From Paraphysomonas bandaiensis (taxonomy: Eukaryota > Protista > Chrysophyceae): a stretch of DNA of 64,000 nt. The notes under the pieces are model-generated. The model saw nothing but the letters and a program-made list of their open reading frames with translations, made no database searches and was not told where the DNA came from. Of this stretch, positions 31,748 through 64,000 are shown in pieces. The number at the start of each line of letters is the position of its first letter. Position 1 is the stretch's first letter. The DNA lies in contig CBFFRP010000020.1 in assembly GCA_965644295.1 (NCBI GenBank), forward strand, positions 104,087-168,086, read 5' to 3'. The position numbers and the translations under genes were made by a program.

Positions 31748-32437
31748 AATTACTACTGAAACTATAAGTCCAAAGTAGTTAATATTATGTGGCAACGCTC
31801 TATTGGGTTTATTGAGACCAGGATGCTGTGCTGAGCCACCGAGCATATGTATATGCATATATACTGCTGCTGTACATGTATATGGAGCTGTAGACCAGAC
31901 CACAATCGAGTTGGGACAAACAGGCTTTTACATAAACAATCAGTTCTTGGATACGGGGAATCAGGCCCAATAATCCAGGGATTTTAGTTGTATTTTGTTT
32001 TTTGATGATTAGCACATCGAAAAAATGGTAATTTTTGTGTAATTCCACCGTCCACACAGCAGTAGAACTTCTTATACGTAGTGCAACATACCATACACAC
32101 AGCAATAGTACATATAGTATCCTACATATCGCTCTTTAGGGTATTCCTTATAGATTTAGGAACATGTTTTTAGGAACATTTTCAGGAACATTTGTTGCTG
32201 GAATTTTGCAAAAACCCCCCCTTATACATTTTCAGCAACATTTTCAGGAACATTTTCAGCAACATTTGTTCCTGGCAAAGTCGGCAGCAGGCGTTTTTGC
32301 CAGCAACATAGGCCAATGTTCCTGGCAAAACGAATTTTTTCCAGCAACACAGGAACATTGTGACGTGCATGAATATATACTTTAAAGTGTATATTATTAC
32401 ATGAATTTACTATACCTAAAACAGTTATTGTTGACAT

Positions 32438-33117: not shown

Positions 33118-33338
33118 GCTCTTATCACTGAACCTGCAACAGAAGTAAATAACAACGGGTAGAGTTGATATTGAACTGCTTGAAAGTTGTGCATTGACTG
33201 GTTACAGTCATAATAAATATGACCAACTTTCTAAATTAATTGTTTTGTCGTAGATCAGCTACTTAACTTAACACATTAATACAAGTTAAGTATTAAAATC
33301 AAAATCCTCTACCATATGAAGTTGTTAATATTATTTCC

Positions 33339-33480
33339 TCGTGCGGGTGGATTCTTGTGAAACACCAACCTCTATCGTGCGGTTGGATTCTTGTGAAACA
33401 CCAATCTCTATCGTGCGGTTGGATTCTTGTGAAACACCAATCTCTATCGTGCGGTTGGATACTTGTGAAACACCAATCCT
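33339..33480. repeat. 36-bp tandem repeat, about 4 copies
   Basis: TCGTGCGG(G/T)TGGATTCTTGTGAAACACCAA(C/T)CTCTA head-to-tail, no spacers. Confidence 0.92.
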
Positions 33481-33569
33481 ATCTACAAGCAACTTATAGA
33501 GTGAAGAAATTGCATCTTATTATCAATAATCAATATAATATGTTCACTTAAAGCATATACAATAGAGAT

Positions 33570-34050
33570 CATAGCGTCCGATAGCTGTTTATTACACTTG
33601 GTACGCAGCATTTCGTTCTAAATTTTCTTGACATGGTGTCTACTTTCAGTTGACAATAAGCTCGCACTAACTTTGTAGGATCATTTCTATACCTAGTGTT
33701 ATGCTTGCTATTGAAATAACTAGCTAAGACTTACCATTACGATAGGCACGGTAGCAATCAAGATTGAAATTTTCAGCCAGTTGTAAGATGTATCCACCTT
33801 CACCTAGGCGGTCACGTTCTATCCTTTGTTCGTCTGTGAACCAATCATCCCCTTCGTATACAGCAATGACATCTCCGTTGTTGTAGGCTATGTGAGAAAG
33901 AAGGCCATGACCCGTGCTCGAGGTGTATGTCTGACCATTGCTGTCGCGAGCTACAAGCAAAGAAGGTCTGTGGTATAGTGCTCGCTTACTCTGTTCCTCT
34001 ATCCTGGCATCGAAAACTAGAATTTGGAGGCGGTTCAAATGTGTGGGCAA
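33570..34050 (-). pseudogene. Frameshifted SET-domain-like sequence carried in the transposon
   Basis: GHGLLSHIAYNNGDVIAVYEG..GYILQLAENFNLDC, then after a frameshift near 33726 LASYFNS. This is the SET motif order GxGL / GxxIxxYxG / YxxxL / ID / AxxxNH. Confidence 0.6.
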
Positions 34051-36304
34051 CTAACAAGTCTTTTGCATTTTCTTCTATATGAAACATTTCAATAATAATA
34101 CTTTCCCTATTGGCAGGCAAATCAAAAGGTTGAGGCAATTCAGGTGCCACCTCAATATCCATTTCAACTCCGTGGCATACTCCATCTCCTCTTTAATCTT
34201 CAAAGTCCATAGGTATGGCTTCAGTGTTATATAACGGTTGTCAAACTATGAGATGTACTATGTTAAAGTTGGCGAACACATAGTCCCTTCAAACTGATAA
34301 TGTTGCTGGCAAAATGTTGCTGAAAATGTTCCTAAATCTATAAAGGGGCTTTTTTCAGCAACATTTTTAGGAAGAAAAACATGCGAGGAACATGTTCCTC
34401 AAAATGTTCCTAAAAAAATGTTCCTAAATGTATAAGGGATACCCTTAGTGTGGTATCATAAAACGCCTTTAAGAATTTAATTCATTTTTTCCTTTTAAGT
34501 CGCCGGTTTGGTGGTCTGGTCAGTGAAATCGTAGTTTGGAATCACTCTGAATTGTTTCAAACTGTGTAATCACGATCGTTCAACACAGAGATATTACATT
34601 CCGTTGAGTGCTCCATCTCAGTGGCTCCTGGTACCTGTGGTTTAACCCTTAGCAATTCTTAAATGATTGTATTTAGCTGAGTATGATGATACGTTACAAT
34701 TACACGAACCCACACCCATTCATAGGTGTATAGCATAGTTCAGGCTCCTACAGTGCTTGTCCCTAATTACAGTACAGTGAAAGGGTTTACACTACAAGGT
34801 GTCAGGGTCATTTATTAGTGGTATTAAATCATTGGGCGTTCTATGTTGCGTAAAGACTACTCAAACAAGGTTTTACCCGTTCGCGTCCACTTTACTGAAG
34901 GTACCTGTATAAAGTTATGACGAGACTATTTTCCTTGAAAGAGCAGAAGCGGTTGTAAAGAAGTTATTTAATATGCACGTGTTGTTGATTTTGCGGCATT
35001 CGATTCTTACGAAGTTAGTGGTGGTATGCAAATATCTGAACCAGGAAGGAACTATTTTTAGTATCGGGATGTAAGTTATTGTGGTTATGCAAGGGGGTAG
35101 ATGTAGCAGCTCAATTTGGACTATTGATATCGAAAATATTGCCTTCATGAGCATATATTAGGTCCGGCGCAATTCCTTAACATTCAAGGAGACATCTTAC
35201 CATAGAAATATATACAAACAGTATTTTAATATTAGTTACCTGCTGAACAGCTCAAAGTTTTTCTTCCTTGCACAGTGTTCTATGTCTCATATAAAGTTGC
35301 TGGTATCGTCATCCATGCGTGCTCTATGTGACTATGTAAATGACTTAGGTGGGAAAAAGGATATAGCACTATTGTAACAATATCTTAACTACTAATATTC
35401 CCTAAGTTTTATCATTTTAAAAGGATTTCGTCAACACTTATGAACTATTACTACTCTACTTTACAACTACTGCATGGAGCTATACTTCTATATTAGTTTA
35501 ACTGAATAATTTTTGTTATTAATTCTATAGATTAACGTTAGAATATACCCGTAAAATGTACTATATTATTAACATTTAGGATGGCTAAATTTACAATTTA
35601 CGTAATTGAATTGAAAATTGAATTGAATTGCCAGCTCACACACTAAACTCATCACTATGGTTATTCACTACAGTTATACTTAACCACGGGTTGAAAGGCG
35701 AAAGACCCGAGTATTAAAATTCGGACAAGGGACGATACTCCATATCCATAGGATATAGGATATAGGATAAGATGTAGTATACCCTTATGATGTTGAAACC
35801 TAATATCTAGAATGTATAGCTATTTGTATCATGCTTGCAGTAAGCGGATATAGGATATAGAAGTTCAATATTAAGAAAACGAATGAAAAATCAACGCAGG
35901 CGTGTAATATATATTACTATATCGAGTATGCGCGTACAATGTACATTGAGTTGTAATTATAAACACCTTATCAACCTCATCATCGATGAAATCTACTTTG
36001 TAATATTTGAGGATTTTTAATCCATTCTAAAAGGTAGTTTAATTAGGTACGAGGAGCCATTTCAACTGCTTCGACGAGGTTGTATAACTGTATACCACAT
36101 CCCGAAACATCTAAAATGGAGTCAATAAAACTAAAATCCACTGCTGTGGCAGTAATGTTGTAGTTCGCTGTTCGGTAGTAATCAGCGCTCAAAATCTTAG
36201 CAGCTTACCAGTACATATTGGATTCAATTTACAAGCATTACTAGCCGATCTCAAAAATGGCTACAAGCACCTACAAATGCATGCTTTCGTTTGAATATGT
36301 CTAA

Positions 36305-41561: not shown

Positions 41562-41824
41562 GTGTGATCAGATGTATATTCGCTGGTTTCAATTAGTATA
41601 AAGTAAAGTAAGTCTAAAGCTGTAGTACCATGAGCTGCTTTTGCCTTCTAACGTGATATTATCTATTAGAAGAGTGGTATAAAATTCTAGACGCTTTATA
41701 GAATTCTGTTACTATAAGTAGTAAAGGTCCTATTCCATAGAGTAGTGGCAGCGATAGAATAGCTTGAATTAGAGCTATTCACTTGAAGCGTTTGCTGTCT
41801 CAGCAGATGCAGCCTTATGTATCT

Positions 41825-41950
41825 TACAATTTAACTAACTAGTGCTTAACTCTGATATCCTACTATTTGGCGCTACGAAAGCTGCTTGTGCGTCACAGCA
41901 AGCACCAACTACTTTCTCTCCATGTCCTCAAGGTGAACAGCCCGGAAAAG
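41825..41950 (-). repeat. Unclassified dispersed repeat family, copy 4 (partial)
   Basis: TTTAACTAACTAGTGCTTAACTCTGATATCCTACT...AGCTGCTTGTGCGTCAC...AAGGTGAACAGCCC matches the reverse complement of the 13.2-kb and 28.8-kb copies. Confidence 0.65.
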
Positions 41951-42045
41951 GTGCGAGTCCGCCTTTGTTAGAGTTTTTAAAACCAATTAATTTAATTGGC
42001 AACTCAATTAATTGTTATGCTAACATGCTAACCGGTACTCTACTA

Positions 42046-42628
42046 CAGATCCTGGGAAACGTTAGTGGCAGGCTTGCGTAATAATTAATTGGTTTTCAAT
42101 TTATTGGCAATTTTGATTATTCGGTTTTGAAAGTGATAATTGCAATTATTATTATTGGTAATTGTTGCTATTTGTTTACTTAAAGACAACCGAAAGCGCA
42201 AAAAAACACGCATCAAACTTCCAACACGATATACGATATTCGATATTCGTACAGCACTACCAACATTTATGAGAGGTTGTTTAGCAGAGCTAAGATTGCT
42301 GTGACTAGATTTTTGCAAGCGAATATAACCTAGACACCTTGAAATGTGAAAATGTTAGTGTTTCTTTGGCTGAGATTATTGTTCAGAAAGTTATTCTAAA
42401 ATCTATCAATAAAATTAAAGCCAATTAATTGGCAATTATTGCCAATTAATTGCATTGCCAATAATTCGATGCTTGATTAATAATTGCAATTATTATTGTT
42501 GGACACTAGTCACCAATTGTTACGCAAGCCTAGTTAATGGCCCATTCACCATTAATGGGTGTCCAGAGCCCCCTGTAACTTTAATGGCAATTAATGAAAT
42601 ATGTACCATTAACAGTTTCCAGGCCCTG
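42046..42628. mobile_element. hAT MITE (same family as 28886-29040) containing a nested element
   Basis: Ends CAGATCCTGGGAAACGTT... and ...CCATTAACAGTTTCCAGGCCCTG; perfect 8-bp TSD CTCTACTA (42038-42045 and 42629-42636). Confidence 0.85.
42069..42532 (+). mobile_element. Internally deleted hAT element nested in the MITE
   Basis: TIR (C/T)AGGCTTGCGTAA(T/C)AATT; 8-bp TSD GTTAGTGG/GTTAATGG; interior matches the 25020-25370 transposase 3' end. Confidence 0.85.
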
Positions 42629-49159: not shown

Positions 49160-50341
49160 CCCATTACTTCAGTCTTGTCGAGGGTATGTTGAGTAGTTTT
49201 TGTTGTACACTTTCGTCAGTAGCGTAGTAATATGATTTTTTTAAACGAAATTTTCAGTCGTTCTCACTTATTCGTCATAGAATCTTCTGCTCTGAGGAAT
49301 GCTATTCGTTGGGACTGCATACTCTATATCTATATATTTGCTACGGTGATGTATTCTGACGGATTTTAGTGGATATTTGTATAGTTATGATGTGAACACA
49401 GTTTGAATCAGATTTTGAGTACAGTACAATGGTAGATACTTTAACTGCTTTATTGAGACGATAGTTTCACAGATTAACGAAATGACGACTGAAATTTTAC
49501 ATACGTAGTATGGCTCAGGGCTCTGCAAAAATATCTTGATTGGTGAACTGGTCAAAAATTCTATCAATATTGTTTCTGTTAAAGTAGTTCACAATATATA
49601 TTGATATGGAAAGCTTCTTAACTGTAAAGTGCAGAATATAGGTCCATGTATCACGTATTCTCTTTGCCTTCCACTTTCCAGCGTAGTGGGTTTGGTTAGT
49701 TTAGTTACCCTGCTATCTGTTATCATGTACTATGTGATAATGACTATAGTACTAAAAATAGATTCTATGGATGTGTTTACGTGCTTACATTCGGTAATGA
49801 TACTAATATATTGCAATAGTATTGTTGGTCCGGTTTAACACCTTCATCAATATTATTGATGACATGATGCTATAGCATTGCCATATATTGTTCCATATCT
49901 CTGATATTGCTGAGATATTGTAACACCTGCGTTTGTACATATACTTTACACGTCGCTGAAATGCTAAGACACACACAGAGAGAGGGGGGGGGGGTCTTCG
50001 ACCCTAGCCGTGTTAACCGTGACCATAAAAACTATTAATTTACACCAACCCTTACCCCTATGGTATCGCTGTGTATCACGTACAAGTGCTTCCAATATTG
50101 TACATTACATTTTTTTATACACTTTTTTACATAAAAAATGTCGTGTCACCTTTCACAATAAAAAATGCAAAAAAAATGTTATTTTCACAAATTTTGCAAC
50201 AGTATACACTACATTTTTTACAACATTTTTCTTAAAAAAAAACTTTTTTCTAAAAAATAAATATCAGAAATAAATATTTTCAACAAAAATGTCAAAAAAA
50301 ATGCAATCAAAATAAAATAATACTATACATATTAACCCCAG

Positions 50342-50405
50342 CGATCAACCGACCCTATTAACCAAACGATCAACCGACCCTATTAACAAACGATAGACCA
50401 ACCCT
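50342..50405 (+). repeat. Direct repeats of ~25 bp in the presumed terminal region
   Basis: CGATCAACCGACCCTATTAAC(C)AAA twice, plus a degenerate third copy CGATAGACCAACCCT. Confidence 0.85.
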
Positions 50406-50495
50406 GACTTAAACACCGAACAATTACAACAGATAGACGGAACAACAGACCTGTTTAACACTATATATAGACATGCCGTGATTTTACTCCCTGTT

Positions 50496-50548
50496 TTACA
50501 TATGTAAGAATATAAAATAATTAAAAAAAAATATATAGTTATATTATA
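50496..50548 (+). promoter_or_regulatory. Viral promoter cassette, duplicated at 51394-51447
   Basis: Palindrome TTACATATGTAA followed by AATATAAAATAATT..AAAAAAATATATAGT..ATATTATA directly before the ATG at both loci. Confidence 0.75.
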
Positions 50549-50980
50549 ATGTCAAAAGAATTAAAATATTTTAGTTGTTGTGAAAATGTTGATTCCGAGC
50601 GTAACGGTAAGTACTACTACAAACATAAAAAGTACATTCATAATGATCCATTTGACTGTCTAAAACATAAGTTAAATAGGCCAGCTGATGAAGTCAATGA
50701 TATAATAAGCAAACGGTTTGAAAAGGGTTTTTTAAGTAGCAATTTTTTTACTTTTAGACCAGTAAACAATACACCTGAATGTTACGATTGGCATGAAAAA
50801 TTTATTATTAAATCAGGTTTAAGAGAAAACGAATGTGATGATGTTCAAGATGAATTTTATCTTAAAAATAAGTTTTGGGAATCAGTTGTTTATATCATTG
50901 AAAATGACGGCGATAAAGAGAAAATGGAAACGGATAAGTGGGTATATTCAATGAATGCTATTGATAAACTAACGTTTTAA
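50549..50980 (+). CDS. PLV hypothetical protein (143 aa)
   Basis: ORF preceded by the conserved viral promoter motif; AT-rich codon use. Confidence 0.75.
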   Translation: MSKELKYFSCCENVDSERNGKYYYKHKKYIHNDPFDCLKHKLNRPADEVNDIISKRFEKGFLSSNFFTFRPVNNTPECYDWHEKFIIKSGLRENECDDVQDEFYLKNKFWESVVYIIENDGDKEKMETDKWVYSMNAIDKLTF

Positions 50981-51019
50981 AAACATTATAGAATTATTTT
51001 TTTGTAATGATACATTATA

Positions 51020-51349
51020 ATGTCAAAGGCCGAAAGTAATAAATTTTTCTTTATGGAAATGGAAGGTAAAATTTTTAGTGTTAAACGTGATCACAAAACA
51101 AACGTACAGGACGAAATAGAACAAGGCAAAAAGGAAATGAACATTTTAATAGATAAACAGAATAGCATAAAAGAAGAATTATTAAAACTTAACAATAAAA
51201 TAAGTGATAAAAAAATGTCTTTGTTAACAAAGAGGCAGCTATTAGAATTATACCGCGGCAAGAGACGCATACCGTGCTTGAATTTATTCAAAAAAAATGT
51301 TACCGATGTTTATATTGATGATGACACAGACAGCGACGAGGACTGTTAA
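51020..51349 (+). CDS. PLV small coiled-coil protein (paralog of 51448-51732)
   Basis: ATTATA-ATG context; MEGKIFSVKRDH..VQDEI..LLTKRQLLELY. Confidence 0.75.
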   Translation: MSKAESNKFFFMEMEGKIFSVKRDHKTNVQDEIEQGKKEMNILIDKQNSIKEELLKLNNKISDKKMSLLTKRQLLELYRGKRRIPCLNLFKKNVTDVYIDDDTDSDEDC

Positions 51350-51447
51350 CAGCAATGAAACATTGACCATTAAATTATAATTTATTTCAATTATTACATA
51401 TGTAAAAATATAAAATAATTTAAAAAAATATATAGTCATATATTATA

Positions 51448-51732
51448 ATGAGTGAGTATTTATTAAAGTTGAAAGGTGAAGTATACAGTATTAGAAAAAC
51501 GCATATGCCAAAAATTCAGGAAGAGATAAGGAATTTAGACAGAGAAATAGAAGATATGAAAATTACATTATCAGAACTTCAGAAACAAAAGAAAGAGTTA
51601 CAAGTAGAGCTATTAAATGAACGGCAATTAATCATATATGAAAATAAAGACGAAGATAAAAGGACTGAATTATTAAGAAAATATGATTTTCTACACGGTG
51701 AATATCGCAGTGATTCTGTAGGATGGAAATAA
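51448..51732 (+). CDS. PLV small coiled-coil protein (paralog of 51020-51349)
   Basis: Preceded by the promoter cassette; LKGEVYSIRKTH..IQEEI..LLNERQLIIY. Confidence 0.75.
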   Translation: MSEYLLKLKGEVYSIRKTHMPKIQEEIRNLDREIEDMKITLSELQKQKKELQVELLNERQLIIYENKDEDKRTELLRKYDFLHGEYRSDSVGWK

Positions 51733-51774
51733 AATATTATAAAAAAATGCAACTGATAAACTGATAAGGTAAAT

Positions 51775-51817
51775 TAAGGGATAAAAATCCCTAAATTTTC
51801 GGGGAAATTATCCCTTA
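51775..51817 (+). terminator. Intergenic hairpin (putative transcription-end signal)
   Basis: Perfect 10-bp stem TAAGGGATAA / TTATCCCTTA, extended by an inner TCCC/GGGA pairing. Lies between the terminal ORF cluster and the capsid module. Confidence 0.6.
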
Positions 51818-51857
51818 GATGTAAAATATATAAATATATTATGTGATATACTTATAT

Positions 51858-52088
51858 ATGGACGGCCTTGAATGGGAAATAAACTATGATAATTATGAAT
51901 TTCCAAAAAAAAATATTATAGACTTAGACAGAGTGATTAACTTAGACACACCAAAATTAAACAGAAATAATAATATAGATACAGACATGTTGACTTATGA
52001 TTTTGCAGAAATAAAAATATCTAATAATGTTAATGGAGAAAATACAGATTGTTCTAAACAGCAAGACAGCAAACCAATACCTAAATAA
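51858..52088 (+). CDS. PLV small hypothetical protein (76 aa) overlapping the minor capsid start
   Basis: ATG 51858 after TATAT, in frame with the track ORF 51843-52088. Confidence 0.5.
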   Translation: MDGLEWEINYDNYEFPKKNIIDLDRVINLDTPKLNRNNNIDTDMLTYDFAEIKISNNVNGENTDCSKQQDSKPIPK

Positions 52089-52764
52089 TAAAACTACTGA
52101 TTGTATTTTTATATTACCAAAGATAGATGTTAAACGACGTCATAAAGCCTATATATCAGTAATTGATGCCTCTATCCCATATTCATTTTATAATGTTAAT
52201 TCAACCAATAACACACTGAATTATACATTAAATAGTATCCCATATTCACTTACAATTACAAAAGCCAATTATAATATTAGAACTTTAATAAGTTTTTTAC
52301 AGTCCAATTTAGAGCCAGGATTTACAATAACTTATAACTCATCAACTAATAAATTACAATTTACCCATAGTACTTATGATTTTTCTTTTTCAAATACTTC
52401 AACCTGTTTTGAATTATTAGGATTTGAAGATAATACAACCTATTATTCAGATTCATTAATATTATTATCAACAATTGGTATAAATTTATTTACAGTAAGA
52501 AACGTTTTAATAGCATCGTCAAATTTTGTTTTAAATAATATAAATAGTGCCACACCTAATAAAGCCTCTATTATTACCTCTGTACCTGTTGATGTTAACG
52601 CAGGATCTATTATTAATTATAAAAATATTAATAATATTAAGAGCTTAGTACATGATATACATAATATAAATACTCTACATGTCCAATTATTAGACCAAGA
52701 CGCAGATATATTAGAATTAAACGGTTTACATTGGTCTTTAAATTTATTATTAACTATTGAATAA
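52027..52764 (+). CDS. Minor capsid protein (penton, single jelly roll)
   Basis: ISVIDASIPYSFYNVNSTNN, ITKANYN, ITYNSSTNKLQF, ELLGF, SVPVDVNAGSIINY and LHVQLLDQD..LELNGLHWSLNL match the PLV/virophage penton pattern. Start may be ATG 52033. Confidence 0.85.
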   Translation: MLMEKIQIVLNSKTANQYLNNKTTDCIFILPKIDVKRRHKAYISVIDASIPYSFYNVNSTNNTLNYTLNSIPYSLTITKANYNIRTLISFLQSNLEPGFTITYNSSTNKLQFTHSTYDFSFSNTSTCFELLGFEDNTTYYSDSLILLSTIGINLFTVRNVLIASSNFVLNNINSATPNKASIITSVPVDVNAGSIINYKNINNIKSLVHDIHNINTLHVQLLDQDADILELNGLHWSLNLLLTIE

Positions 52765-52794
52765 AAAATATTTCTCTCAATATAGTATATATAC

Positions 52795-53235
52795 ATGTCA
52801 AAACTAGGCAAAAAGCTAAATCGTAAATTTCGTAAACTAGGTCGTAAGGCCGATCACAGAATACATAAACTAGGACAAAAAACACACGACGTATTAGACA
52901 AGGTTCAGAGTGGAGTAAATAAAGGACTTGATAAATCAGCAAAGGCAATTAACGTAGCAGATAAAATATTAGGCGTCGGTGATAAAACTATACACGCTAT
53001 TAATAAAGCAGGATTAAATACAATGCCCGTTGTTGGATCAGCATCTAGACTATTGGAAGCAGGATTACACGAAGGACATAAAGGAGTACATAAGCTACAT
53101 AAGCTACACAATAAAGCCGATAAACACAGTAAACAAGCATTTAAAAAGGCTCATAACGCAGGTAATAAATTAGAAAAACACAACACAAGAAAAGCTTTAG
53201 CTAAGTTAACACAAGATGACAGCACATTTATATAA
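52795..53235 (+). CDS. Highly basic Lys/His-rich protein between the capsid genes (candidate core or membrane-lytic protein)
   Basis: MSKLGKKLNRKFRKLGRKADHRIHKLGQK..., amphipathic helices, position between mCP and MCP. Confidence 0.7.
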   Translation: MSKLGKKLNRKFRKLGRKADHRIHKLGQKTHDVLDKVQSGVNKGLDKSAKAINVADKILGVGDKTIHAINKAGLNTMPVVGSASRLLEAGLHEGHKGVHKLHKLHNKADKHSKQAFKKAHNAGNKLEKHNTRKALAKLTQDDSTFI

Positions 53236-53283
53236 ATTATATTTTATTATACTATAAAAAATATTTATCTATTTATAGTATAT

Positions 53284-54633
53284 ATGTCAGGATTACCAAA
53301 AAACGTATTATATACAAATAATATAAATTCAAGTTATGCGCGTAATTATCAGAATAATATAGCTCCACAAAATGGTTTGGGGCCATATGGTGCAGGAGAG
53401 ACCATAATTATTAATATTCCTACCGGTCGTAATCTCGTAATGTCTGGTGCTGATTCACTTTTAAAATTAAGCTTAATAGTAAACACAGCAACAACTACGG
53501 CGGTTTCAGAATTCGTAAGACTAGATAAAGCCGGTATTCATTCCCTAATTTCTAGAGTGCGAGTATTTCATGGCTCTACTTTACTTTCAGATATTCAGAA
53601 TTATAATAATCTAGTCGGTGAGCTCATGGCTTTGCAACAGTCTAACGACTCTTTTATTAACAAACACACAATTTTATCAGGAACGGAAAGTTTCAGTATT
53701 GTTGACAGCACAACAAGCACAAACGAGGGTTTAATTGTTGGTGAAAGACTTAATGAATTCACACAAGTTGCAGATGGGGGCAGTACAACTAAACGATATT
53801 ATACAGTACCAATAATGAATTTTTTAAGCTACAGTGATAAATATATTCCACTGTTCGCAATGACCGGCGCACCTTTACGACTAGAAATAGTTCTGGTTAA
53901 TAATCCATTAGAGGGCATTTGTTGCGATAAAGCCATAGATTCAATAGCTATTAATGACGTTGAATATGTTTGTAATTTTATGGAGTTATCAGATGACGCA
54001 ATGAATAAAATTAATTTGGCATCAAATGGACCTTTAAGGTGGGTTGTACAAGATTACAGAAATTATTCACATACTGGAAATATTGCCGCTAACGTTGAAC
54101 TTAGTGTTCCCGTACCCGCTAAATATAACTCTTTAAGATCTCTATTTTTCAGTATGCGTGATAAACACGCTGGAGCAGTCACCTATTTCCCTCTGTCATC
54201 AAATCATTTCGGTCTAGAGTCATACAGTGTTAGATTAGGTAGTAAGACCGTACCAACTAAAGCACCTAGTTGCCTTCCTGAATTTTTCGGCGAATTGATC
54301 AGAGCAATTGGAAGCGTAAGCGATTTGAATCATGAACCAAGCATTAATATAAATACTTATGATATGCAAGCGTCAGCAGCCAATAGCGAGACAGCAGCCG
54401 ATTATGACGGGTGTGCAGTATCATCCAACTTTTATTTAGGTTTAGATCTAGAAAGTTACAGCAGCTCAGGCATGGAAACAGTTTACCAGGGTTATAACAG
54501 TAGCACTGACGATATATTTTTTATGCCTCGTTTTTCCTCAAGTGCCCCCACTGTGACCGCACGCATAGATACATACGCTTATTTTGATCAAGTCATTTTG
54601 ATTGAAAACGGTTTTGCAACATTGCAATATTAA
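53284..54633 (+). CDS. Major capsid protein (double jelly roll, PLV type), intact 449 aa
   Basis: IAPQNG..Y.AGETIIINIP, IHSLISRVRVFHGSTLLSDIQNYNNL, KYIPLFAM..LRLEI, SLRSLFFS, FYLGLDLE, YAYFDQVILI. Size and synteny with the penton gene agree. Confidence 0.9.
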   Translation: MSGLPKNVLYTNNINSSYARNYQNNIAPQNGLGPYGAGETIIINIPTGRNLVMSGADSLLKLSLIVNTATTTAVSEFVRLDKAGIHSLISRVRVFHGSTLLSDIQNYNNLVGELMALQQSNDSFINKHTILSGTESFSIVDSTTSTNEGLIVGERLNEFTQVADGGSTTKRYYTVPIMNFLSYSDKYIPLFAMTGAPLRLEIVLVNNPLEGICCDKAIDSIAINDVEYVCNFMELSDDAMNKINLASNGPLRWVVQDYRNYSHTGNIAANVELSVPVPAKYNSLRSLFFSMRDKHAGAVTYFPLSSNHFGLESYSVRLGSKTVPTKAPSCLPEFFGELIRAIGSVSDLNHEPSININTYDMQASAANSETAADYDGCAVSSNFYLGLDLESYSSSGMETVYQGYNSSTDDIFFMPRFSSSAPTVTARIDTYAYFDQVILIENGFATLQY

Positions 54634-54716
54634 ATTTATAAAAAACCTTTAGATTTTTAAAAAAATAAAAAATTAAAAAATTTATTATTTAAAAAATAAT
54701 ATATATTTGTATATTA

Positions 54717-57700
54717 ATGAGTACAAAAGAGAGTTTTGAAGAGTTTGATTTAGAACACCTTGATAACCTGACTTATGAACAGTTGTAACTTTTCTGTGCC
54801 CGCAGATGACTCACAAACCGTGACTCAACTCTGAATGGACCAAGAAAAGATGATCTCTTGTCTAGACTCTACAACCCACCAAAATAGTATCCGCCAGCGG
54901 GCTGCGATACTGTCCAGGGCGCAACGACGGGCGCACTGCCAGAAACACTAACAAACCGTAGGTGCTCTTTAAGAAAAGTAAATTATAAAGTCAGTGACAA
55001 GAATGAGCAAACACCCATCTCGTTCAACGTAGATCAACACTACACTACGATCAACACTTCACACTCGAAAAACAATATTCACGTACTAAAACCAATATTC
55101 ACATACGAAAACTTCGACTATCTACGAAATCACGTATTTTGTACTAAAACTTCGAAGTTCTGGACTTCAGTCCAAATCAAATGTGAATCGCCGTCAGAAA
55201 CTGAAAAACGTATCTCAGCTACTAAACTGAAAACCTCGAATGTCGTAAACTGATAAAGGTAAGTCCCAAATACAGTGAATATACCCTGTATATGACAACC
55301 TCTATATGCATATGTATACCATATATATACCATATACTGCTCCAGATATATGCGATATATACACACTATATACAGCACAGTATTCTATATACAAATACAC
55401 GCAGTGTATACTGCTGCGTGACACTACCCTCTTTTTCCTTCCAACGGATAAGAGATTCCGGAAATTAGGAAAATTCTAAATTAAGAGAGGATATTGGGAA
55501 ATCTGGCACAGACGGCGGAGTCTACCAGAACCATGGTGTCAGGGTTAAAATCTTGTGTAGTTCCATAGTTCTGGATAGGCTGACCATTCAAAAGTAGAGT
55601 TAAAGAGAGAACAATACACATCAATAGTGATCCTTTTGCGGCCCGCCCAACGCTTATAGACACATTGAACTACATAAAGAGTATCATATGCATTAGGTAA
55701 TTCTAAAGCGTCATAGAAGTCTGCACCCCACGCTCGAAGATTAACAAAGACAACGTCTCCAGGTATGACAGTGGATATAACACACTTCTTGAGTTTAGTC
55801 TTCTGTTGCACTGCTTCCTTTGCAGTAAAACGTAAGGGAAACAATTCAGGGACACTGAAAATATATTCATGAAAAGATTCACTTGTCGCAAGATCAGTAG
55901 AATATGGCATCCACAACAACGATTGATCGGAGAAGAGAACTCTGAAATCCATAGTAGTTCTTTTTTCGGGGTCCCCTCTATAAGCCACCACTTTGTCAAG
56001 AAAAAATTGCCTATAGTCAATCATTGCTATGCGAAAAGCCTCCTCCTTGCTACCAAAGAATGGCTTCAACCAGGACATATGTAACGTTACATCAAACCGC
56101 ATTACTAAATGAGTACAAATAACATCGGCCTTGTACGTGGATACTACTTCATACGGTCCTTTGAATCGAGGATATAATTTGGACGGCTTATGTTTCGTTA
56201 CATCCAGTTTAAACAAAACAAGCTGGCCTGGTTGATATTGATTCATTTTCTCTGCTGGGGTTTTGGACATACGTTTATTCTGAATTTTCTTCTGAACTTC
56301 ACACGCAATTTTCCTGATAGCTTTAAGGTTATCATTGAAATTGGAAATATAAGTCGAAGAAGCAAATTCATCTGAAGAACTGTCAGGGATATGAAAATAC
56401 TTTGAATCCATTGTTCCAAACGTAAACTCAAAAGGTGAAAGACCCGTCTCACTTGAAATTTCATCGTTGAGAATGAATTGTATCAACAAATAGCATTCTG
56501 GGTCACTCCAATTTTCTAATCTTTCGTCATGAACCAATGCACTAAGAAAACGCAATAATTCCCGATTACTTCGTTCCACCATGTTGGACTCACGTCTATT
56601 CACTAACGACATTCTAAAGCGGACTCCAAACCATTTCAGGAGTAACTGAACAACCCTAGCTGTGATATTCGAACCTGGATCCGATACCATCACTTCAGAA
56701 ATCCCATATGTGACAAAGTAACTGAACAAAGCACGTGCCACTCCCTCTGCTGAGTAATTACGAGCTGGATATATTCCTACTAGGCGAGATGGTAATTGTT
56801 TCACCACATGAATACAACAATAACCATTAGCATCTACCGGAGTAACAGTCAATGTATCGAAACCCACAAAATGTCTGCAATTATCAAGATTTAATGCTCT
56901 TATCGGTGCTTGCAACGATGTACTCATATCATAACCTAACTTTTGACAAATAGGACATCGATCAATAAAATCTTGGATAATTTCTGTTGTCAAGGTATGA
57001 CCCGGAAATACCTTACTAAGTTTCAACCATGTTCTCTTAGCTCCACGATGACCCATTCTACCATTGTGTACTAGATCAAAAGCTTCTTTTAGAGACTTTG
57101 GCTGTAAATTCTGATTAGCTAACTCATCCAAGGCTTTGACTAGTTCCTCTGGGAATTCTGAAACACAAGCAAGATCTTCTGCCTCCGCTGACAACATACC
57201 ACTCTCATCATACATAAAAAGTTGGTCTTCCGACAACAGACTAGAATTCTCATACTCCACTCCTAGACACAATTCAATATCTGAACATGAATCTTGAAGA
57301 CACATATCTAACAACATGACACAAGAAGCTGCTCTCTCCTGTCCCATTCTTGATAACCAATCCGCGAAACGATTTAGTTTACCTTTGAAATGTAACCAAT
57401 CCATATCAAAGTTTTGCATGAACATTCTCATTCGAACTATTCGGTCAACCACTGAAATTTCCATCCACTTTAGATTTGCATGATCCGTCATAATCGTAAA
57501 GTGTTTTCCTCTCAAGTAGTACGACAACTTAAAGATAGAATAGAATATACCAAAACATTCCTTGTTTATAGTTGACCATTTGAAAGCAAGATCTTAAAAT
57601 TTTTTAGAAACCATAGAAAGAAATCAAGTACATTCTCTTGTTGAGATATTGACACACAGACTCAATACCCACATCATAGATAGCCTTTTTTGTCGACTGG

Positions 57701-60700
57701 AAATCTGTATAACACTTACATGGAAAAGGAAACCTGGAAATTATATAAAACATCAAGTTAACTGCAGAACTTCCATGTTGAACTTTGACTCATTGATTCC
57801 CACATAGTTACTCAGAACAATGTATAACCACCAGTTTTGATACACTCATAGAATCAATTTTCAACTCAGGAATACATAGCATCTGATAGTTCTCTGACAT
57901 TAGAGTTCGAACAACAGACTTTCTATCACATCACTGACACAGGATCTCACTCATTACCCTGAACTGTTTGAGAAGTGACAACCTCGAAAGAATTTTACAT
58001 TCCAAGAAAATAATATAATATCATCAAACTCAAACAACTTATTTTGAATCAAGGAATTCAAAATTGTAGGTACATTTCAAATACCATCACAATAGCACTC
58101 TGGAAGTTTAGATACCACCGAACAAAATATTTTCAGTAACCTTCTTGTACTCAACACTTCAAGTTTAAATGCAAAGAACCGTTGAAAAAACTAACAACAT
58201 CTCTCTTGTCTTTTGAAGAAAACATCACTTTCACTCGCATCACATTCTGAATCTCACAATATCACCACCATACTGACAAGCAATGTAATCGGAGATAACT
58301 CCTGATGAAGAACAATGAATGTCGAAAACACTCCCTCACAGAAGAATCTGCTCTCACTTGATTCAAAATTTCAATTGGCAATAGACATTCAAACTCTCTC
58401 AATACAATTGCAGCACAATACCAGACACATGTGCAACAACACTGTCCACAGAATGAACTATGTATATCATCGAACAATGTATCCAACTTGGAAAACTTAT
58501 GAACGATAATGTCACGAGAAGATTCACGTAATTTGACAAGATGGCTCCCATTTAATCTGTAACACGTTTGAAACATTTTCAAGAAACTTCAGAAACTCCT
58601 CTTGCAACCATCATTGAAATGAAATTAAACAGTATGACGTTACATCATTGGCCAACATACTATTGAACTCACTGACAGAATTTTCGCTCTTAACTCTCAG
58701 TCTAACTCAATACAACTTTAGTATTTTGACACCTCACTTTGCAAAACACAAACTTCAACTCTCAAAACAAATCTGAACTTCAAACAATTGAACAACTCAA
58801 TAGTAATGGACTCTCAAATCGAAAACATTAATCATATATATCTCATCGAAATTATTGAACAACAAATAAATCAAACTGAACCAGAAAAGAAACAATCGCT
58901 AATATTGAATAGCTCATTCTCGATTATATACAATATATAGTATTATATAAGTATCATCGGTATATAGTATAGGTAAAATGATATCACGTATGTCGAATCT
59001 GTACAATTTGAAACACAGGCTCATTGAACTCTCCATTCCAGGAATACAAAGAAAACTCCACCGGCCTTGCTTCTACAATATCTTAATATATATGAACATA
59101 AAATATGATACAAATTCACAACTGACTCTCGCACCCACATCGAACACATTCACATTGACGCCATGAAACATCACTCAATCATTTGAACACTGCACCCCAT
59201 GTAGACACTCCACAACAAACTGCTGTTGACTAGCTTCTCTGCTCAACACACACTTGATTCTAAGAACATAGTATTCACTGACAACATATGTTCGAATTGA
59301 CTCTGGTGTAGACACTCATCACAACAAACTGAATTTGAACTGACAAAATATCGGACAAAATATTTACAATACAATACAATCTCTCCATCGCAAGCATTGC
59401 ACAACGAATCCTCTGAGACAGAAACTCATGAAGACATTCGTTACAATACAACACTATCTCACATCCAAACCGAAATGAAATGAATAGGCACACTGATGAT
59501 AATGTAACTCCATTAGTAATACAACATCAACATCTGGTACAACCACATTTCATTATTCCAACAGGTTGAACTTAGAATTGAAAAAGACACACCGATTTGG
59601 CAATAGGCGGTCCAGGACCATGCTCATCGCACAACACAAGTTCTTTAAAACACACGTCTAGTTTCTCAACCATCATTTTACAGTAAAGAAAACTGACCAC
59701 TTCAAGCTGACTCAATGACAACACAACATGCTCTTCCATAATCTGTCCTAGCACTGCACAATAGCTTAATGGAATCAATGTACCACTAGCAACCATGGCA
59801 TTCCATATGGCTAATTGAACGATTGAGACAACAGATGAATCACAGCCAATATCGTCCTTGACAGTAGGTTCCTCATGTGAAAGCTGATTCACTGAAACAA
59901 CCGGTACAGAAGAACAACCATTGAATTGCACAACAGGTCCATCGATCTGCTGCTCCTGATCAATCTTTGAGACAACATTGCTTATCATCTTCTCAACAAG
60001 TATCACAACATCTGACTCAACATGCACGGGGCTAATGCACTGTTCCTTGACACACATAACAGGGCATTCCACTTCTGAGTCCACGTTCTGAGGGGAATTT
60101 GAATCCTTATCATAAGAATCAGGAAACACTGAAAAACTATTCTCCACCTCAGCAGGTAATTCCATAATATCAGAGACAACAATATCTTGCATTAACAAAG
60201 GCTCCACCTTGGCAGAATTGATACTCTCAATATGAACATCCGAAGGCTGATTCACAACGCAAACAACTTCCTTGACTTTTGAATCATCAAATGGAATTTG
60301 GGAAATTTCCTTTACAGGAAGAGGTGAAACTTTTTCTTTGGAAACAACTGAAGCTACTGGTGAAGTCCTCCGAGATCTTATCTCTTCGACTGCTGTAAGA
60401 CGTTGAGTAACTTCCACTCGAAACTCATTGAAATTCTCCTCCTGCCTTAGCTGTTGCTGATTAAGCTGATGCATGTCCTCCCGAAGCTGTTGCTGAATAT
60501 CGTCCCGAAGCTGCTGATTTTGCTGTTGAATCTCATCCCGAAGCTCGTCTCTTAGTTGCTGAAATTGTTGACTGAACATGTTGACCATGTCTTGGAAGCC
60601 TTGAGGCTCCATGGCTCAATCACACGAAAACTAAACACACTTATCTCTTGGGCTCAATATATATTAACTTGGTACAAATATACTGCTAAGCTAAGCTAAG

Positions 60701-62816
60701 TAATATTACTGTAACTTTTCTGTGCCCGCAGATGACTCACAAACCGTGACTCAACTCTGAATGGACCAAGAAAAGATGATCTCTTGTCTAGACTCTACAA
60801 CCCACCAAAATAGTATCCGCCAGCGGGCTGCGATACTGTCCAGGGCGCAACGACGGGCGCACTGCCAGAAACACTAACAAACCGTAGGTGCTCTTTAAGA
60901 AAAGTAAATTATAAAGTCAGTGACAAGAATGAGCAAACACCCATCTCGTTCAACGTAGATCAACACTACACTACGATCAACACTTCACACTCGAAAAACA
61001 ATATTCACGTACTAAAACCAATATTCACATACGAAAACTTCGACTATCTACGAAATCACGTATTTTGTACTAAAACTTCGAAGTTCTGGACTTCAGTCCA
61101 AATCAAATGTGAATCGCCGTCAGAAACTGAAAAACGTATCTCAGCTACTAAACTGAAAACCTCGAATGTCGTAAACTGATAAAGGTAAGTCCCAAATACA
61201 GTGAATATACCCTGTATATGACAACCTCTATATGCATATGTATACCATATATATACCATATACTGCTCCAGATATATGCGATATATACACACTATATACA
61301 GCACAGTATTCTATATACAAATACACGCAGTGTATACTGCTGCGTGACACAGTCCAAAGCTTACGTAACAAATTATTTTTTCCCACTTACAAACGGCGCA
61401 CATGCACTTAGAACAGGACATAAAAAATTTAGCATTATGGAACACAAAAAAGTTAAAGAAACGTATTTTAACAGAATGGATAAACGGATAGCAAAATATT
61501 ATTTCACTGAATTTAAAGGGCTTCGTAAAATGGTTTATGAGCTTGGCAAAGGTATATTCCCTGATAAAAAGAAATTAAATTTAGCCGCTCAGTTTGCACA
61601 TGACTATAAACCATATGAAGACTTTGATGATGAGAGTAAGGAAGGTGTACAGGCGTTTTTATCATATATTAAAGAAATATTGGCATCCAATGATCAGGTA
61701 CAATATGAATATTTATTAAAGTGGTTTGCCAATATGACAAAGGGTAATAAAAACGAATCTATCATTTTCCTAAAAGGTCCTCAGGGCATAGGTAAATCAA
61801 CCATATCCCTATTTATGAATACTTACGTACTTGGCCGTGACCTGTGTTTAGAAGCTGGCGCGGACGTATTGACATCTAAATTTAATTCAGATCTAGGAGG
61901 TAAATTATTTGTATATTTTGAAGAATTAGAAAAACAAAGCAGGGCTGATTGGGACGCAATCAATACTAAATTAAAACGATATACGACGAGCGACGTTTAT
62001 ATAATAAATCCAAAGCATGAGTCAACATATCAGGCTGCAAATATTAATAATTATTTAATTAATGCAAATTATAGTTTAAATGAAGAATGCGGAAGAAGGT
62101 ATTTTATTTGTGATGTTTGTTGTAAAAAACGTAATGACTTAAAATATTTTGGATGGCTACGTAATCTATGCTTTAATAACGAGGTAGGACATGCTTTTTA
62201 CTGTTATTTAATGGAATACAACACAGAAAAATTTTATAGTCAAAATTTCCCTATCACAAAAAACAAGTTAGACGCATACGCCAAGAGATTAGGAAGCGTT
62301 GAAATGTTTTTAAAGGATGAATTTGTATTAAAGAGATTGGATATAAATAATATACTTGTTAAAGAAATATTTAACCATTATATCCAGTATTGCACTCAAA
62401 ATAATATTAAACCAGTTAAACATACAATTGATTTTAATAAGGTCATGAGTGAATTAAATTTTATTCACAAAAAGAATAAAGATAGGCGTAATGTGTACAA
62501 TGTTACATTAGACGAATTAAATAAAGTTTCTGAATCTTTACATTGGGTTCATGAATTAGATGAATATGATGATGGCCCTGATGTAGAATATAATATTAAA
62601 GATAAAATTAAAAAACGTTGCAATACAAATACCATTACAAGCGCTATTAAAAAGATTAGCAATAAACAAAGCGATAAAACAGATGAAGATACAGATGATG
62701 ATACAGATGAAGATGAAGATGAAGATACAGATGAAGATGATGATGAAGATGAAACACCCCGTGTAAGTCAGAAGACAGTGAAAGATATAATGAAAACTTA
62801 CGGAATAAATATTTAA
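54717..62816 (+). CDS. SF3/D5-like helicase, interrupted after codon 22 by the LTR element (54717-54783 joined to 61354-62816 = 509 aa)
   Basis: Walker A GPQGIGKS, Walker B VYFEE, motif C INAN, GRRYF. MSTKESFEEFDLEHLDNLTYEQ joins SKAYVTNYFF in frame once the element and one TSD are removed. Confidence 0.9.
54784..55423 (-). repeat. 3' LTR
   Basis: TGTAACTTTT...GCGTGACA, identical by eye to 60710-61349. Confidence 0.95.
55424..55442 (-). other. Polypurine tract
   Basis: Minus strand GGAAGGAAAAAGAGGGTAG abuts the 3' LTR. Confidence 0.85.
55545..57620 (-). CDS. pol remnant: partial RNase H, integrase (HHCC, DDE, GPY/F), chromodomain-like and extra C-terminal domain
   Basis: WSTINKECFGI..FTIMTDHANL..ADWLSR (RNase H); H..GH..CPIC; FDTL / SDPGSN / VERSN; KLYPRFKGPYEV; LDKVVAYRG..FRVLF..WMP. 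In-frame TAA at 57594-57596; open for 660+ codons downstream of it. Confidence 0.88.
59572..60612 (-). CDS. Gag-position ORF (Gln-rich coiled-coil N-terminus)
   Basis: 346-aa ORF starting ~100 bp inside the 5' LTR boundary. No zinc knuckle recognised. Confidence 0.6.
   Translation of the reverse strand: MEPQGFQDMVNMFSQQFQQLRDELRDEIQQQNQQLRDDIQQQLREDMHQLNQQQLRQEENFNEFRVEVTQRLTAVEEIRSRRTSPVASVVSKEKVSPLPVKEISQIPFDDSKVKEVVCVVNQPSDVHIESINSAKVEPLLMQDIVVSDIMELPAEVENSFSVFPDSYDKDSNSPQNVDSEVECPVMCVKEQCISPVHVESDVVILVEKMISNVVSKIDQEQQIDGPVVQFNGCSSVPVVSVNQLSHEEPTVKDDIGCDSSVVSIVQLAIWNAMVASGTLIPLSYCAVLGQIMEEHVVLSLSQLEVVSFLYCKMMVEKLDVCFKELVLCDEHGPGPPIAKSVCLFQF
60710..61349 (-). repeat. 5' LTR
   Basis: 640 bp, identical by eye to 54784-55423. 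Confidence 0.95.
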
Positions 62817-62865
62817 AAAAATAAAAAATAATTTATTTAAAAAATTAATATATAAATATATATTA

Positions 62866-63120
62866 ATGAGAGATAAATTTATAGTAGAAATATATGATAA
62901 TAATAATAATCTGATTACATCACAACACTTTACATCCTATAAAGCAATAGCACAGGAATACGATATACAATATTCAGAAGCTAGGAAACTTAACGCTTTA
63001 TGTGAGTCACGTACAACATGTAAATACTTACATCCATCATTAAAGCGACTGATTAACAGAATAAAAATTTATGATATTAATAATATAAATAATTATGATA
63101 TTAAAAAAATAAAAATTTAA
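62866..63120 (+). CDS. PLV small protein, NUMOD1/HTH-like DNA-binding candidate
   Basis: VEIYDNNNNLITSQHFTSYKAIAQEYDI resembles NUMOD1. Conserved upstream motif TTATTTAAAAAATTAATATATA..TATATTA-ATG. Confidence 0.65.
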   Translation: MRDKFIVEIYDNNNNLITSQHFTSYKAIAQEYDIQYSEARKLNALCESRTTCKYLHPSLKRLINRIKIYDINNINNYDIKKIKI

Positions 63121-63152
63121 TTATTTAAAAAATTAATATATAGTATATATTA

Positions 63153-63485
63153 ATGGACAAATATAAGTTTTATAAGATTGATGAGAAGGACTTTAAAAAC
63201 TCAGTTGAAATTACGACCAGATTCAGACACAGAAAGAAAGGTAAAGAATTAGACGTTCCTGATATGCACTTTTTATATAATATGGTTGAGGAAAACTTAC
63301 CAGAAGATGCCAATATAATGGTTAGAGCGTTAAATGGTCATAGATACTTTACATTTAAAGGGTATACTAGTTACCAGCTGAACGTGCAGGATTTTGATGA
63401 CTATTATAAAAGCTCAGTCAAGAATACTGAGAAATTTGAGAAGTTTGAATTTATTGATATAACGGTGTTCATGTCTACGACATGA
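63153..63485 (+). CDS. PLV hypothetical protein (110 aa)
   Basis: ORF with the same upstream motif as 62866 and 63576. Confidence 0.72.
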   Translation: MDKYKFYKIDEKDFKNSVEITTRFRHRKKGKELDVPDMHFLYNMVEENLPEDANIMVRALNGHRYFTFKGYTSYQLNVQDFDDYYKSSVKNTEKFEKFEFIDITVFMSTT

Positions 63486-63575
63486 TCCATACGTTAACTC
63501 CTGTTTTTATGGAAAAATAAATAATTAAAAAATTAAAAAATTAAATATTTAAAAAATAATATATAGTATATATTA

Positions 63576-64000
63576 ATGAGCTATATATTATTTTGTCGTT
63601 TGCTTTCCGGTTTTAGAATATTTGACACAAGCGTTAAAGAATTTAAGACTATAAATAAATATCCTAGTGAACATCACAGCTTTGAATTAATGAAAGGATA
63701 TGAACCAACTGATGAAGACTTAAAAAGATACGCAGAGGATTTTAAAAAGTGGTGCGATGAACTAAAGGACCCTGAAAATTTTCTTACTATAGACTATTCT
63801 AATTATGTTTCTCATTCTTACGCAGTGAGAAATACATATAAACGCATGAAAAAGAATAAGTTTAAAAATGTAAAGGAAATAACATTTAGTAAAGTAACAA
63901 AAGCAGAACACTTTTATATGTCACAGTGCAATAATGGACCTTTAATGTACTGTCAGCAATATCAAGGGCCATGTTTTGGATATGATTACAGCCAGTATTA
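63576..64000 (+). CDS. Probable protein-primed family B DNA polymerase, N-terminal part (cut by window end)
   Basis: Open for 141 codons from ATG 63576. Ends ...FYMSQCNNGPLMYC..GPCFGYDYSQY, resembling the YxGG region and the start of PolB motif A (YDxxSxYP). Confidence 0.65.
   Translation, partial: MSYILFCRLLSGFRIFDTSVKEFKTINKYPSEHHSFELMKGYEPTDEDLKRYAEDFKKWCDELKDPENFLTIDYSNYVSHSYAVRNTYKRMKKNKFKNVKEITFSKVTKAEHFYMSQCNNGPLMYCQQYQGPCFGYDYSQY

What the first reader, a model, noticed from the sequence alone, without database searches (positions are those of the whole stretch)
54717..62816. Three-level nesting: a young Gypsy element inserted precisely into the provirus helicase gene
Seen: 640-bp LTRs identical by eye, a CAGT TSD, and exact restoration of a 509-aa helicase ORF on excision, so the insertion is recent and hit an intact virus. 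Known: Ngaro (tyrosine-recombinase) retrotransposons nest in Cafeteria endogenous virophages, and chromodomain integrases can target heterochromatin. Inference: a DDE-integrase LTR element that prefers silenced proviruses, either disabling them or hitch-hiking in capsids when complemented in trans.
Basis: partly seen in the sequence, partly recalled or inferred. Interest (0 to 1): 0.85.

Follow-up and report, generated by a model that had tools for sequence, protein, structure and literature searches.

The report
Defective Gypsy jumped into protist provirus
A jumping gene that lacks its own copying enzyme recently landed in the helicase gene of a virus integrated in a marine single-celled eukaryote, likely disabling that copy; such nesting is already known, and nothing here shows that the element seeks out viruses.

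Summary
Observation confirmed: identical 640-bp LTRs (54784-55423, 60710-61349), a CAGT duplication, and 509 codons of helicase without the insert. The uninterrupted gene is real: its junction appears in 4 of 4 runs laid and as a 99% identical 505-aa protein. So a helper likely moved it. A chromodomain-like fold is present but lacks the third cage aromatic. Preference for proviruses is neither shown nor excluded: no genome was held, and the tests on relatives (0 of 80, 0 of 15) had little power. Gypsy or LTR elements inside Polinton-like viruses, including gene-disrupting ones, are published (PMC10120064, PMC12220804, PMC12747079), and this scan noted similar nests in other genomes (unchecked). 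New member of a known kind.

The parts
49985..64000 (+). Endogenous Polinton-like virus (left arm; runs off the window); left edge approximate, at a G-run after the last host gene
   Evidence: GC 0.41 host vs 0.30/0.28 viral arms; capsid and helicase genes below; right end, terminal repeats and target duplication not in the window
52027..52764 (+). Probable minor capsid protein, 245 aa
   Evidence: PF19254 E 2.4e-7; homologue in 11 of 15 viral loci found with the MCP; the label 'minor capsid' is inferred
52795..53235 (+). Basic 146-aa ORF between the capsid genes (possible core protein, inferred)
   Evidence: homologue in 8 of 15 viral loci
53284..54633 (+). Major capsid protein, 449 aa, double jelly roll
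   Evidence: 382 homologues, closest 96%; model pLDDT 85.5; Foldseek PBCV-1 Vp54 E 8.7e-18
54717..54783 (+). Helicase gene, 5' piece (22 codons, ends in the first CAGT); read into the LTR it stops two codons later
   Evidence: sequence; same N-terminus in P0209/P0210
54780..54783 (.). Target-site duplication CAGT, left copy
54784..55423 (-). 3' LTR, 640 bp
55424..55445 (-). Polypurine tract
55545..57616 (-). RNase H C-terminal remnant + integrase (HHCC, D-D-E, GPY) + chromodomain-like fold; in-frame stop at 57594-57596 upstream, 5-nt deletion near the C-terminus relative to the four runs
   Evidence: Pfam RT_RNaseH, Integrase_H2C2, rve; motifs and substitutions; indel table; fold
57617..60343 (-). 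2.7-kb segment in place of most of gag, protease and reverse transcriptase
   Evidence: 0 of 57 pol homologues hit 57681-60369 at E<0.1; partner contigs leave the window sequence at 57616 and 60344
59572..60612 (-). ORF1, 346 aa: about 90 residues of Gag-like coiled coil fused to an unrelated acidic tail
   Evidence: one of 57 homologues hits the N-terminus, E 2e-4; only 2 relatives among 1.84 billion representatives
60710..61349 (-). 5' LTR, 640 bp; no tRNA-type primer site seen after it
61350..61353 (.). Target-site duplication CAGT, right copy
61350..62816 (+). SF3 (D5-like) helicase, 3' piece; an ATG inside the LTR (61218) opens a 532-aa chimeric frame
   Evidence: PF19263 E 1.8e-14; phrog_1156 E 4.6e-22; 307 homologues; ORF list

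Best explanation
A Ty3/Gypsy LTR retrotransposon without protease or reverse transcriptase sits, with identical LTRs and a 4-bp duplication, 67 bases into the helicase gene of an integrated Polinton-like virus; it was likely copied and inserted by a full-length helper of the same family and likely persists because damage to one of several virus copies costs the host little, not because it aims at viruses. Steps: (1, shown) the gene was whole before the insertion; (2, shown) the element lacks PR/RT and its integrase frame has no upstream frame and is frameshifted; (3, inferred) an already decayed RT-less source copy was transcribed, packaged and reverse-transcribed by the partner seen in the same runs, which reset the LTRs to identity, and the partner's integrase made the 4-nt staggered cut; (4, inferred) the viral promoter now yields a 23-residue stub, and the LTR-started chimera lacks a conserved N-terminal stretch, so this copy likely makes no working helicase; (5, established knowledge) DDE LTR elements do not excise precisely, so the damage would be permanent, unlike Ngaro.
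For: LTR identity, TSD, PPT. Uninterrupted junction in 4 of 4 runs and P0209. No PR/RT hit from 57 homologues. Loose ends at 57616 (X1, X2) read in frame into the RNase H N-part, like P0001; X8 has one contig joining 57616 to 60344 through other sequence; its depth (221) plus the spacer's (333-389) about equals the integrase's (572-603) (the tool warns that depth is no copy number). 11 of 14 changed codons non-synonymous against a neutral 79%, window derived in 5 of 6 polarised codons including the His of the conserved RHESN motif. Internal divergence 0.85% would predict about 11 LTR-LTR differences if gathered in place; 0 seen, P 2e-5. Four different contigs abut the LTR edge in each of X2 and X8, so the family has other sites. 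Near-exact precedent with a copy outside PLVs (PMC12747079 section 14).
Against: The other insertion sites could not be read, so neutrality is assumed, not measured. The family keeps a chromodomain-like fold with two of three cage aromatics, and chromodomains can steer integration (as stated in PMC11541908). Strong provirus preference exists for Ngaro type 1 (91% in EMALEs, PMC8547959 section 11), and Gypsy elements are 'often observed near' viral insertions in Synura/Dinobryon (PMC10120064). The helper's reverse transcriptase was not itself read, only the contig ends that lead to it. LTR identity could be inflated by gene conversion or assembly polishing; the LTR also differs less from the runs (0/579, 0/298, 2/574, 5/556) than the interior does. 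No listed contig shows the filled junction in any of the four runs (485 pieces not shown).
Confidence: 0.68

Rival explanations
1. The family's integrase (supplied by the helper) is steered by its chromodomain to silenced chromatin in general, of which proviruses are one part; the virus is hit more often than chance, but so are other repeats.
For: Chromodomain-like fold conserved across 70 relatives; stramenopile Gypsy ECR-1 with a chromodomain is confined to centromeres (PMC11541908, passages); retrotransposons reported near PLVs in several protists (PMC10120064, PMC12721341, passages).
Against: Third cage aromatic absent (G in 58 of 70); fold match is middling (Z 5.5 at best); chromatin state of this provirus unknown; post-insertion selection gives the same clustering.
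Confidence: 0.18
2. One reading: the family specifically targets proviruses, disabling them or riding in their capsids when an intact copy complements the helicase.
For: One insertion in a PLV; intact helicase copies in the same runs make complementation possible; Ngaro precedent for specific targeting (PMC8547959); shuttle idea raised for PLV-155 (PMC12747079).
Against: 0 of 80 loci of related integrases carry PLV genes and 0 of 15 related viral loci carry this pol (low power); no LTR match in viral, metagenome or genome contigs; an RT-less passenger cannot spread alone; 6.6 kb extra load; reactivated virophages carried no full Ngaro (PMC10945749).
Confidence: 0.1
3. The perfect LTR identity or the nesting is partly an assembly product (collapsed or polished repeats), and the insertion is older than it looks.
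For: Interior 0.85% from the runs' majority while the LTR is near 0%; PMC10120064 warns of polishing artefacts in multi-copy viral elements.
Against: Exact 4-bp duplication with frame restoration is not an assembly signature; polishing would have pulled the interior to the majority too; the helicase is still 99% identical to an intact copy.
Confidence: 0.04

Closest known systems
Ty3/Gypsy retrotransposon embedded in a PLV of the chrysophyte Hydrurus foetidus; Gypsy elements near viral insertions in Synura and Dinobryon (Bellas et al. 2023, PMC10120064, passages read)
   Same: Gypsy inside an endogenous PLV of a protist
   Different: No junction, age or autonomy analysis in the passages read; here the element is RT-less and the junctions are resolved
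PLV-27 of Tyrannomonas regina (PMC12747079, section 14 read)
   Same: Degraded retrotransposon with about 600-bp direct repeats disrupting a core PLV gene; judged a target, not a vehicle
   Different: There 9.8 kb, in rve-INT, with a near-identical copy mapped outside PLVs; here 6.6 kb, in the helicase, other copies unmapped
Nested RT/rve-INT retrotransposons in cryptophyte and ochrophyte PLVs (PMC12220804, passages read)
   Same: 4-9.5-kb elements with direct repeats, in genes or spacers; immobilisation, shuttle and trans-complementation already proposed
   Different: Those were found by RT domains, so an RT-less element like this one could be missed
Ngaro retrotransposons in Cafeteria EMALEs (PMC8547959 section 11; PMC10945749 passages)
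   Same: Retrotransposon nested in an integrated small DNA virus, once in a primase/helicase gene
   Different: Tyrosine recombinase, split repeats, measured preference (91% for type 1), apparently excised on reactivation; this element is DDE-type with a TSD and no measured preference
Chromodomain-bearing stramenopile Metaviridae such as Ectocarpus ECR-1 (PMC11541908, passages)
   Same: 6.6 kb, 4-bp TSD, integrase with C-terminal chromodomain
   Different: ECR-1 is autonomous, centromeric and keeps all three cage aromatics; relationship to this family not tested
Non-autonomous LTR retrotransposons (LARD/TRIM/Morgane-type; recalled, not from a call)
   Same: Moved in trans by an autonomous partner with shared LTRs
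   Different: Keeps a long integrase frame and a Gag-fusion ORF1; an ORF1 of the same build occurs in another lineage at 41% identity

Membership tests
Ty3/Gypsy (Metaviridae) LTR retrotransposon | Direct LTRs TG...CA, 4-6-bp TSD, PPT | tested here: met
Ty3/Gypsy (Metaviridae) LTR retrotransposon | Order RT-RH-INT and DDE integrase with HHCC and GPY/F | tested here: met
   RH precedes INT in the window; homologues carry PR-RT-RH-INT; family profile's best solved match is Ty3 Gag-Pol, E 1.3e-91
Ty3/Gypsy (Metaviridae) LTR retrotransposon | Primer-binding site (tRNA or self-priming) | tested here: inconclusive
   no TGG start after the 5' LTR and no complement of 7 nt or more to the LTR within the first 30 offsets; host tRNA set not available
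Autonomous Gypsy element | Intact gag, protease and reverse transcriptase | tested here: not met
   0 of 57 homologues align to 57681-60369; no long frame there
Non-autonomous LTR element | Autonomous partner with the same LTR and termini in the same organism | tested here: inconclusive
   partner contigs branch at 57616 and 60344, but their RT was not read
Chromodomain integrase (chromovirus-like) | Chromo fold at the integrase C-terminus | tested here: met
   model residues about 50-103 align to chromo/chromoshadow domains in most top rows, Z 5.5 or less, 47-55 residues, rmsd 1.8-3.8; Atlas neighbours rve+Chromo at 0.96; Pfam weak in 4 of 70, none for the window; Foldseek no E<=0.001
Chromodomain integrase (chromovirus-like) | Three aromatic cage residues for methyl-lysine binding | tested here: not met
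   first F/Y in 59 of 70, second F/Y in 70 of 70, third G in 58 of 70; mapping to HP1 by eye from recall
Chromovirus clade proper | RT phylogeny inside the chromovirus clade | not tested
   no named reference set on hand; the window copy has no RT
Polinton-like virus | Double-jelly-roll major capsid protein and minor capsid protein | tested here: met
Polinton-like virus | Packaging ATPase, integrase, terminal repeats with TSD | not testable with these tools
   element runs off the window; no genome held
Provirus-targeting retrotransposon (Ngaro type 1-like behaviour) | Most copies inside proviruses | not testable with these tools
   other flanks seen only as mixed loose ends; indirect tests 0 of 80 and 0 of 15 with little flank

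The most novel reading that the evidence does not exclude
A Gypsy family whose altered chromodomain steers both the helper and an old, conserved RT-less satellite into silenced Polinton-like proviruses, so that a DDE retrotransposon works as a permanent off-switch for the host's endogenous viruses, the first such measured preference outside the Ngaro elements.
Probability: 0.13. Interest if true: 0.68.

Novelty: new member of a known kind. Interest (0 to 1): 0.3.

Why it matters
As it stands it is a clean, base-resolved example of a known nesting and shows one way in which protist proviruses (some of which protect hosts from giant viruses) are lost. It is a convenient system for the open question whether retrotransposons aim at proviruses or merely survive there, because the family is young, has few copies, includes a helper and a passenger, and the uninterrupted virus gene exists in the same samples. 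If a preference were measured, it would extend provirus targeting from tyrosine-recombinase Ngaros to DDE integrases.

Tried and rejected
No whole genome was held, so copies could not be mapped. Exact LTR-end patterns found nothing in metagenome, viral or genome contigs; single-protein scans for helicase and MCP in viral contigs found nothing until an alignment was used; ORF1 found nothing in genome contigs. 80 of 305 related integrase loci were kept; 0 of 80 had a PLV protein hit at E<=1e-4, but most contigs end at or inside the LTRs, so this is weak. 5 viral contigs carry distant pol relatives (21-31%) and no PLV gene. Reads were laid only on 55424-62600, so the left junction and host single-copy depth were not measured and depth cannot be turned into copy number. 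Self-priming site: none found; ends of LTR-bearing relatives were too incomplete to compare. Rescue of the helicase by the LTR's ATG was considered: 2 of 6 LTR frames offer such an open ATG, the upstream sequence fits the viral promoter motif poorly, and the lost N-terminal stretch is conserved in 45-50% identical relatives (by eye), so chance is favoured. No other copy of the LTR or interior lies in the window. Paper searches gave no paper measuring PLV preference for a DDE LTR family; supplements (e.g. Fig. S7 and tables of PMC12220804, Supplementary file 1 of PMC8547959) were not opened and may bear on this.
Full report
1. Observation. The repeat scan and a direct comparison give two LTRs, 54784-55423 and 60710-61349, identical over 640 bp, starting TG and ending CA, each outer end flanked by CAGT. 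A purine tract abuts the left LTR on the minus strand, so the element reads leftwards, against the viral genes. The 67 nt from the ATG at 54717 and the 1463 nt after the second CAGT make 510 codons, 509 residues and a stop, with no internal stop. The right piece is an SF3/D5-type helicase (PF19263, E 1.8e-14; phrog_1156). These may be other copies of the virus family rather than the empty allele of this locus: the X1 contig differs at 8 of 332 letters.

2. The host and the virus. Left of about 49,985 lie eukaryotic genes (myosin, TPR, MGAT4-like) at 41% GC; the viral arms are 30% and 28%. The holders are marine. No call named the host; a stramenopile protist is my inference. The 449-aa gene folds as a double jelly roll (pLDDT 85.5; PBCV-1 Vp54 E 8.7e-18) and has 382 homologues. 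In 15 viral loci found with an MCP alignment, 11 carry the neighbouring 245-aa gene and 8 the 146-aa gene. This is a Polinton-like virus; its right end, integrase and ATPase are outside the window and no genome was held, so 'intact virus' holds only for the genes seen.

3. The element is not autonomous. 57 long pol homologues (best 62%) align only from about 57,620 downward: the end of RNase H, integrase and a C-terminal domain. None hits 57,681-60,369 at E<0.1; one hits the first 80 codons of ORF1. An in-frame stop lies at 57594-57596, just upstream of the long frame. In the runs, contigs leave the window sequence at 57616 (X1, X2 among the rows shown; 79 rows hidden) with letters that read in frame as the missing RNase H stretch, matching P0001 by eye, and at 60344 (X1); in X8 one contig joins both points through other sequence. 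Its depth (221) and the spacer's (333-389) add up to about the integrase's (572-603); X1, X2 and X5 also show integrase deeper than spacer (the tool warns that depth is no copy number). So an RT-less form and a likely full-length partner share LTR and integrase. The RT-less form is covered in all four runs, so it is a family, not a one-off deletion. Its ORF1 has only two relatives among 1.84 billion representatives (96% and 41%); the 41% cluster includes a 304-aa protein of the same build and a transcriptome member, a hint that this build is old.

4. Young insertion of an old, decaying sequence. Against the runs' majority letters the window's RNase H-integrase frame differs in 14 codons (16 letters taken from the 40 of 254 table rows shown; X1's contig over this part has 18 differences in all): 11 non-synonymous, 3 synonymous, against a neutral 79%. 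Where P0001 sides with one version, the window is derived in 5 of 6, including the His of the RHESN motif that the alignment-based scan picked as conserved. It also lacks 5 nt near the C-terminus that all four runs have (table 4). Had 0.85% divergence been gathered in place, the LTRs should differ at about 11 sites; none do (P 2e-5; upper 95% bound on LTR-LTR divergence 0.47%). The simplest reading is a recent copy of an already decayed source, made by a helper. Gene conversion or polishing are not excluded.

5. Chromodomain. Pfam finds none in the window and weak hits in 4 of 70 relatives; Foldseek gives no E<=0.001. The model (pLDDT 90.3) aligns over residues of about 50-103 to chromo and chromoshadow domains in most top rows, at middling Z (5.5 or less), and Atlas neighbours of P0001's integrase are rve+Chromo clusters (0.96). 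I accept the fold. Of the three cage aromatics (mapped by eye from recalled HP1) the first is F/Y in 59 of 70, the second in 70 of 70, the third is G in 58 of 70. Binding to methylated histones is therefore not implied, though cage-less plant CRM chromodomains still go with centromere targeting (PMC11541908, passages).

6. Targeting. One insertion cannot show preference. Four different contigs abut the LTR edge in each of X2 and X8, so other sites exist, but only a mixed consensus was printed. 0 of 80 loci of related integrases (35-46% identical; 80 of 305 kept) show PLV genes and 0 of 15 related viral loci show this pol; both tests are weak. Chrysophyte genomes hold 33-104 MCP genes each (PMC10120064, passage), and insertions there are likely neutral, so nested copies are expected without targeting.

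7. Mechanism and consequence. Helper-made cDNA was likely inserted with a 4-nt stagger. The viral promoter now gives 23 residues; an ATG in the right LTR opens a 532-aa chimera that keeps all but the first 21 residues, but that stretch looks conserved in relatives and 2 of 6 LTR frames offer such an ATG. DDE LTR elements do not excise precisely (established knowledge), so this copy is likely disabled for good unless other copies supply helicase. Riding in capsids is unlikely: 6.6 kb on a genome whose relatives lie on contigs of up to 18.7 kb, an RT-less passenger, and no full Ngaro in reactivated virophages (PMC10945749, passages).

8. What is known. Ty3/Gypsy inside a Hydrurus PLV (PMC10120064, passages); nested 4-9.5-kb RT/rve elements with direct repeats in cryptophyte and ochrophyte PLVs, with the immobilise, shuttle and trans-complement ideas already stated (PMC12220804, passages); PLV-27 with a core gene split by a degraded element with 595-bp repeats and a copy outside PLVs (PMC12747079, section 14); Copia near Oxyrrhis PLVs (PMC12721341, passages); measured Ngaro preference (PMC8547959, section 11). 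Gao et al. 2008 was seen only as a citation. Seven searches returned no measurement of PLV preference for a DDE LTR family; supplements were not opened. Two unchecked notes of this scan describe similar nests in other genomes as ordinary pile-ups.

9. Verdict. Real, precise and recent, but a new member of a known kind. The small additions are the RT-less/helper pair and the altered chromodomain. Interest 0.3; 0.68 if a true preference were shown (probability about 0.13).

Noticed in passing
window 50519-50548, 51418-51447, 52765-52794, 53254-53283, 54687-54716, 62836-62865, 63123-63152, 63546-63575: Eight of ten viral genes examined share an upstream TATA-rich motif ending at the ATG (roughly TATATAGTATATATTA-ATG), a likely viral promoter.
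   Followed up: partly
window 61218-62816: ATG inside the right LTR opens a 532-aa LTR-helicase chimera; it would survive solo-LTR formation. Probably chance.
   Followed up: partly
window 60641-60709 (minus strand): No tRNA-type primer site after the 5' LTR; instead a 10-bp palindrome and three TTAGC repeats; priming mode unexplained.
   Followed up: partly
window 59572-60612; P0330, P0331, P0332: The Gag-stub + acidic tail ORF1 recurs at 41% in another lineage, one member from a transcriptome; many members of the P0001 cluster are integrase pieces that start inside the catalytic core, suggesting RT-less satellites in a sister family too.
   Followed up: partly
window 58594-59878: A second repeat family shares patches of the spacer in the runs (joints at 58594-59517, 59540-59636, 59715-59878; deep in X8).
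   Followed up: no
window 63576-64000: Open frame running off the window ends in a YDYSxY stretch that recalls motif A of protein-primed polymerase B (recalled; no Pfam or PHROG hit).
   Followed up: partly
window 49985-50410: G-run and short direct repeats at the probable left end of the virus; may be part of a terminal inverted repeat whose partner is outside the window.
   Followed up: no
window 13106-13354, 25013-25672, 28693-29134, 41814-42601: Four 80-90% alike copies of a non-coding dispersed repeat in the host part, both orientations.
   Followed up: no
window 32138-34445: 2.3-kb stretch bounded by 54-bp inverted repeats (93%) with an inner 36-bp tandem array at 33339-33478; possible non-autonomous DNA transposon.
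   Followed up: no
window 7189-7391: 200-bp near-perfect hairpin, MITE-like.
   Followed up: no
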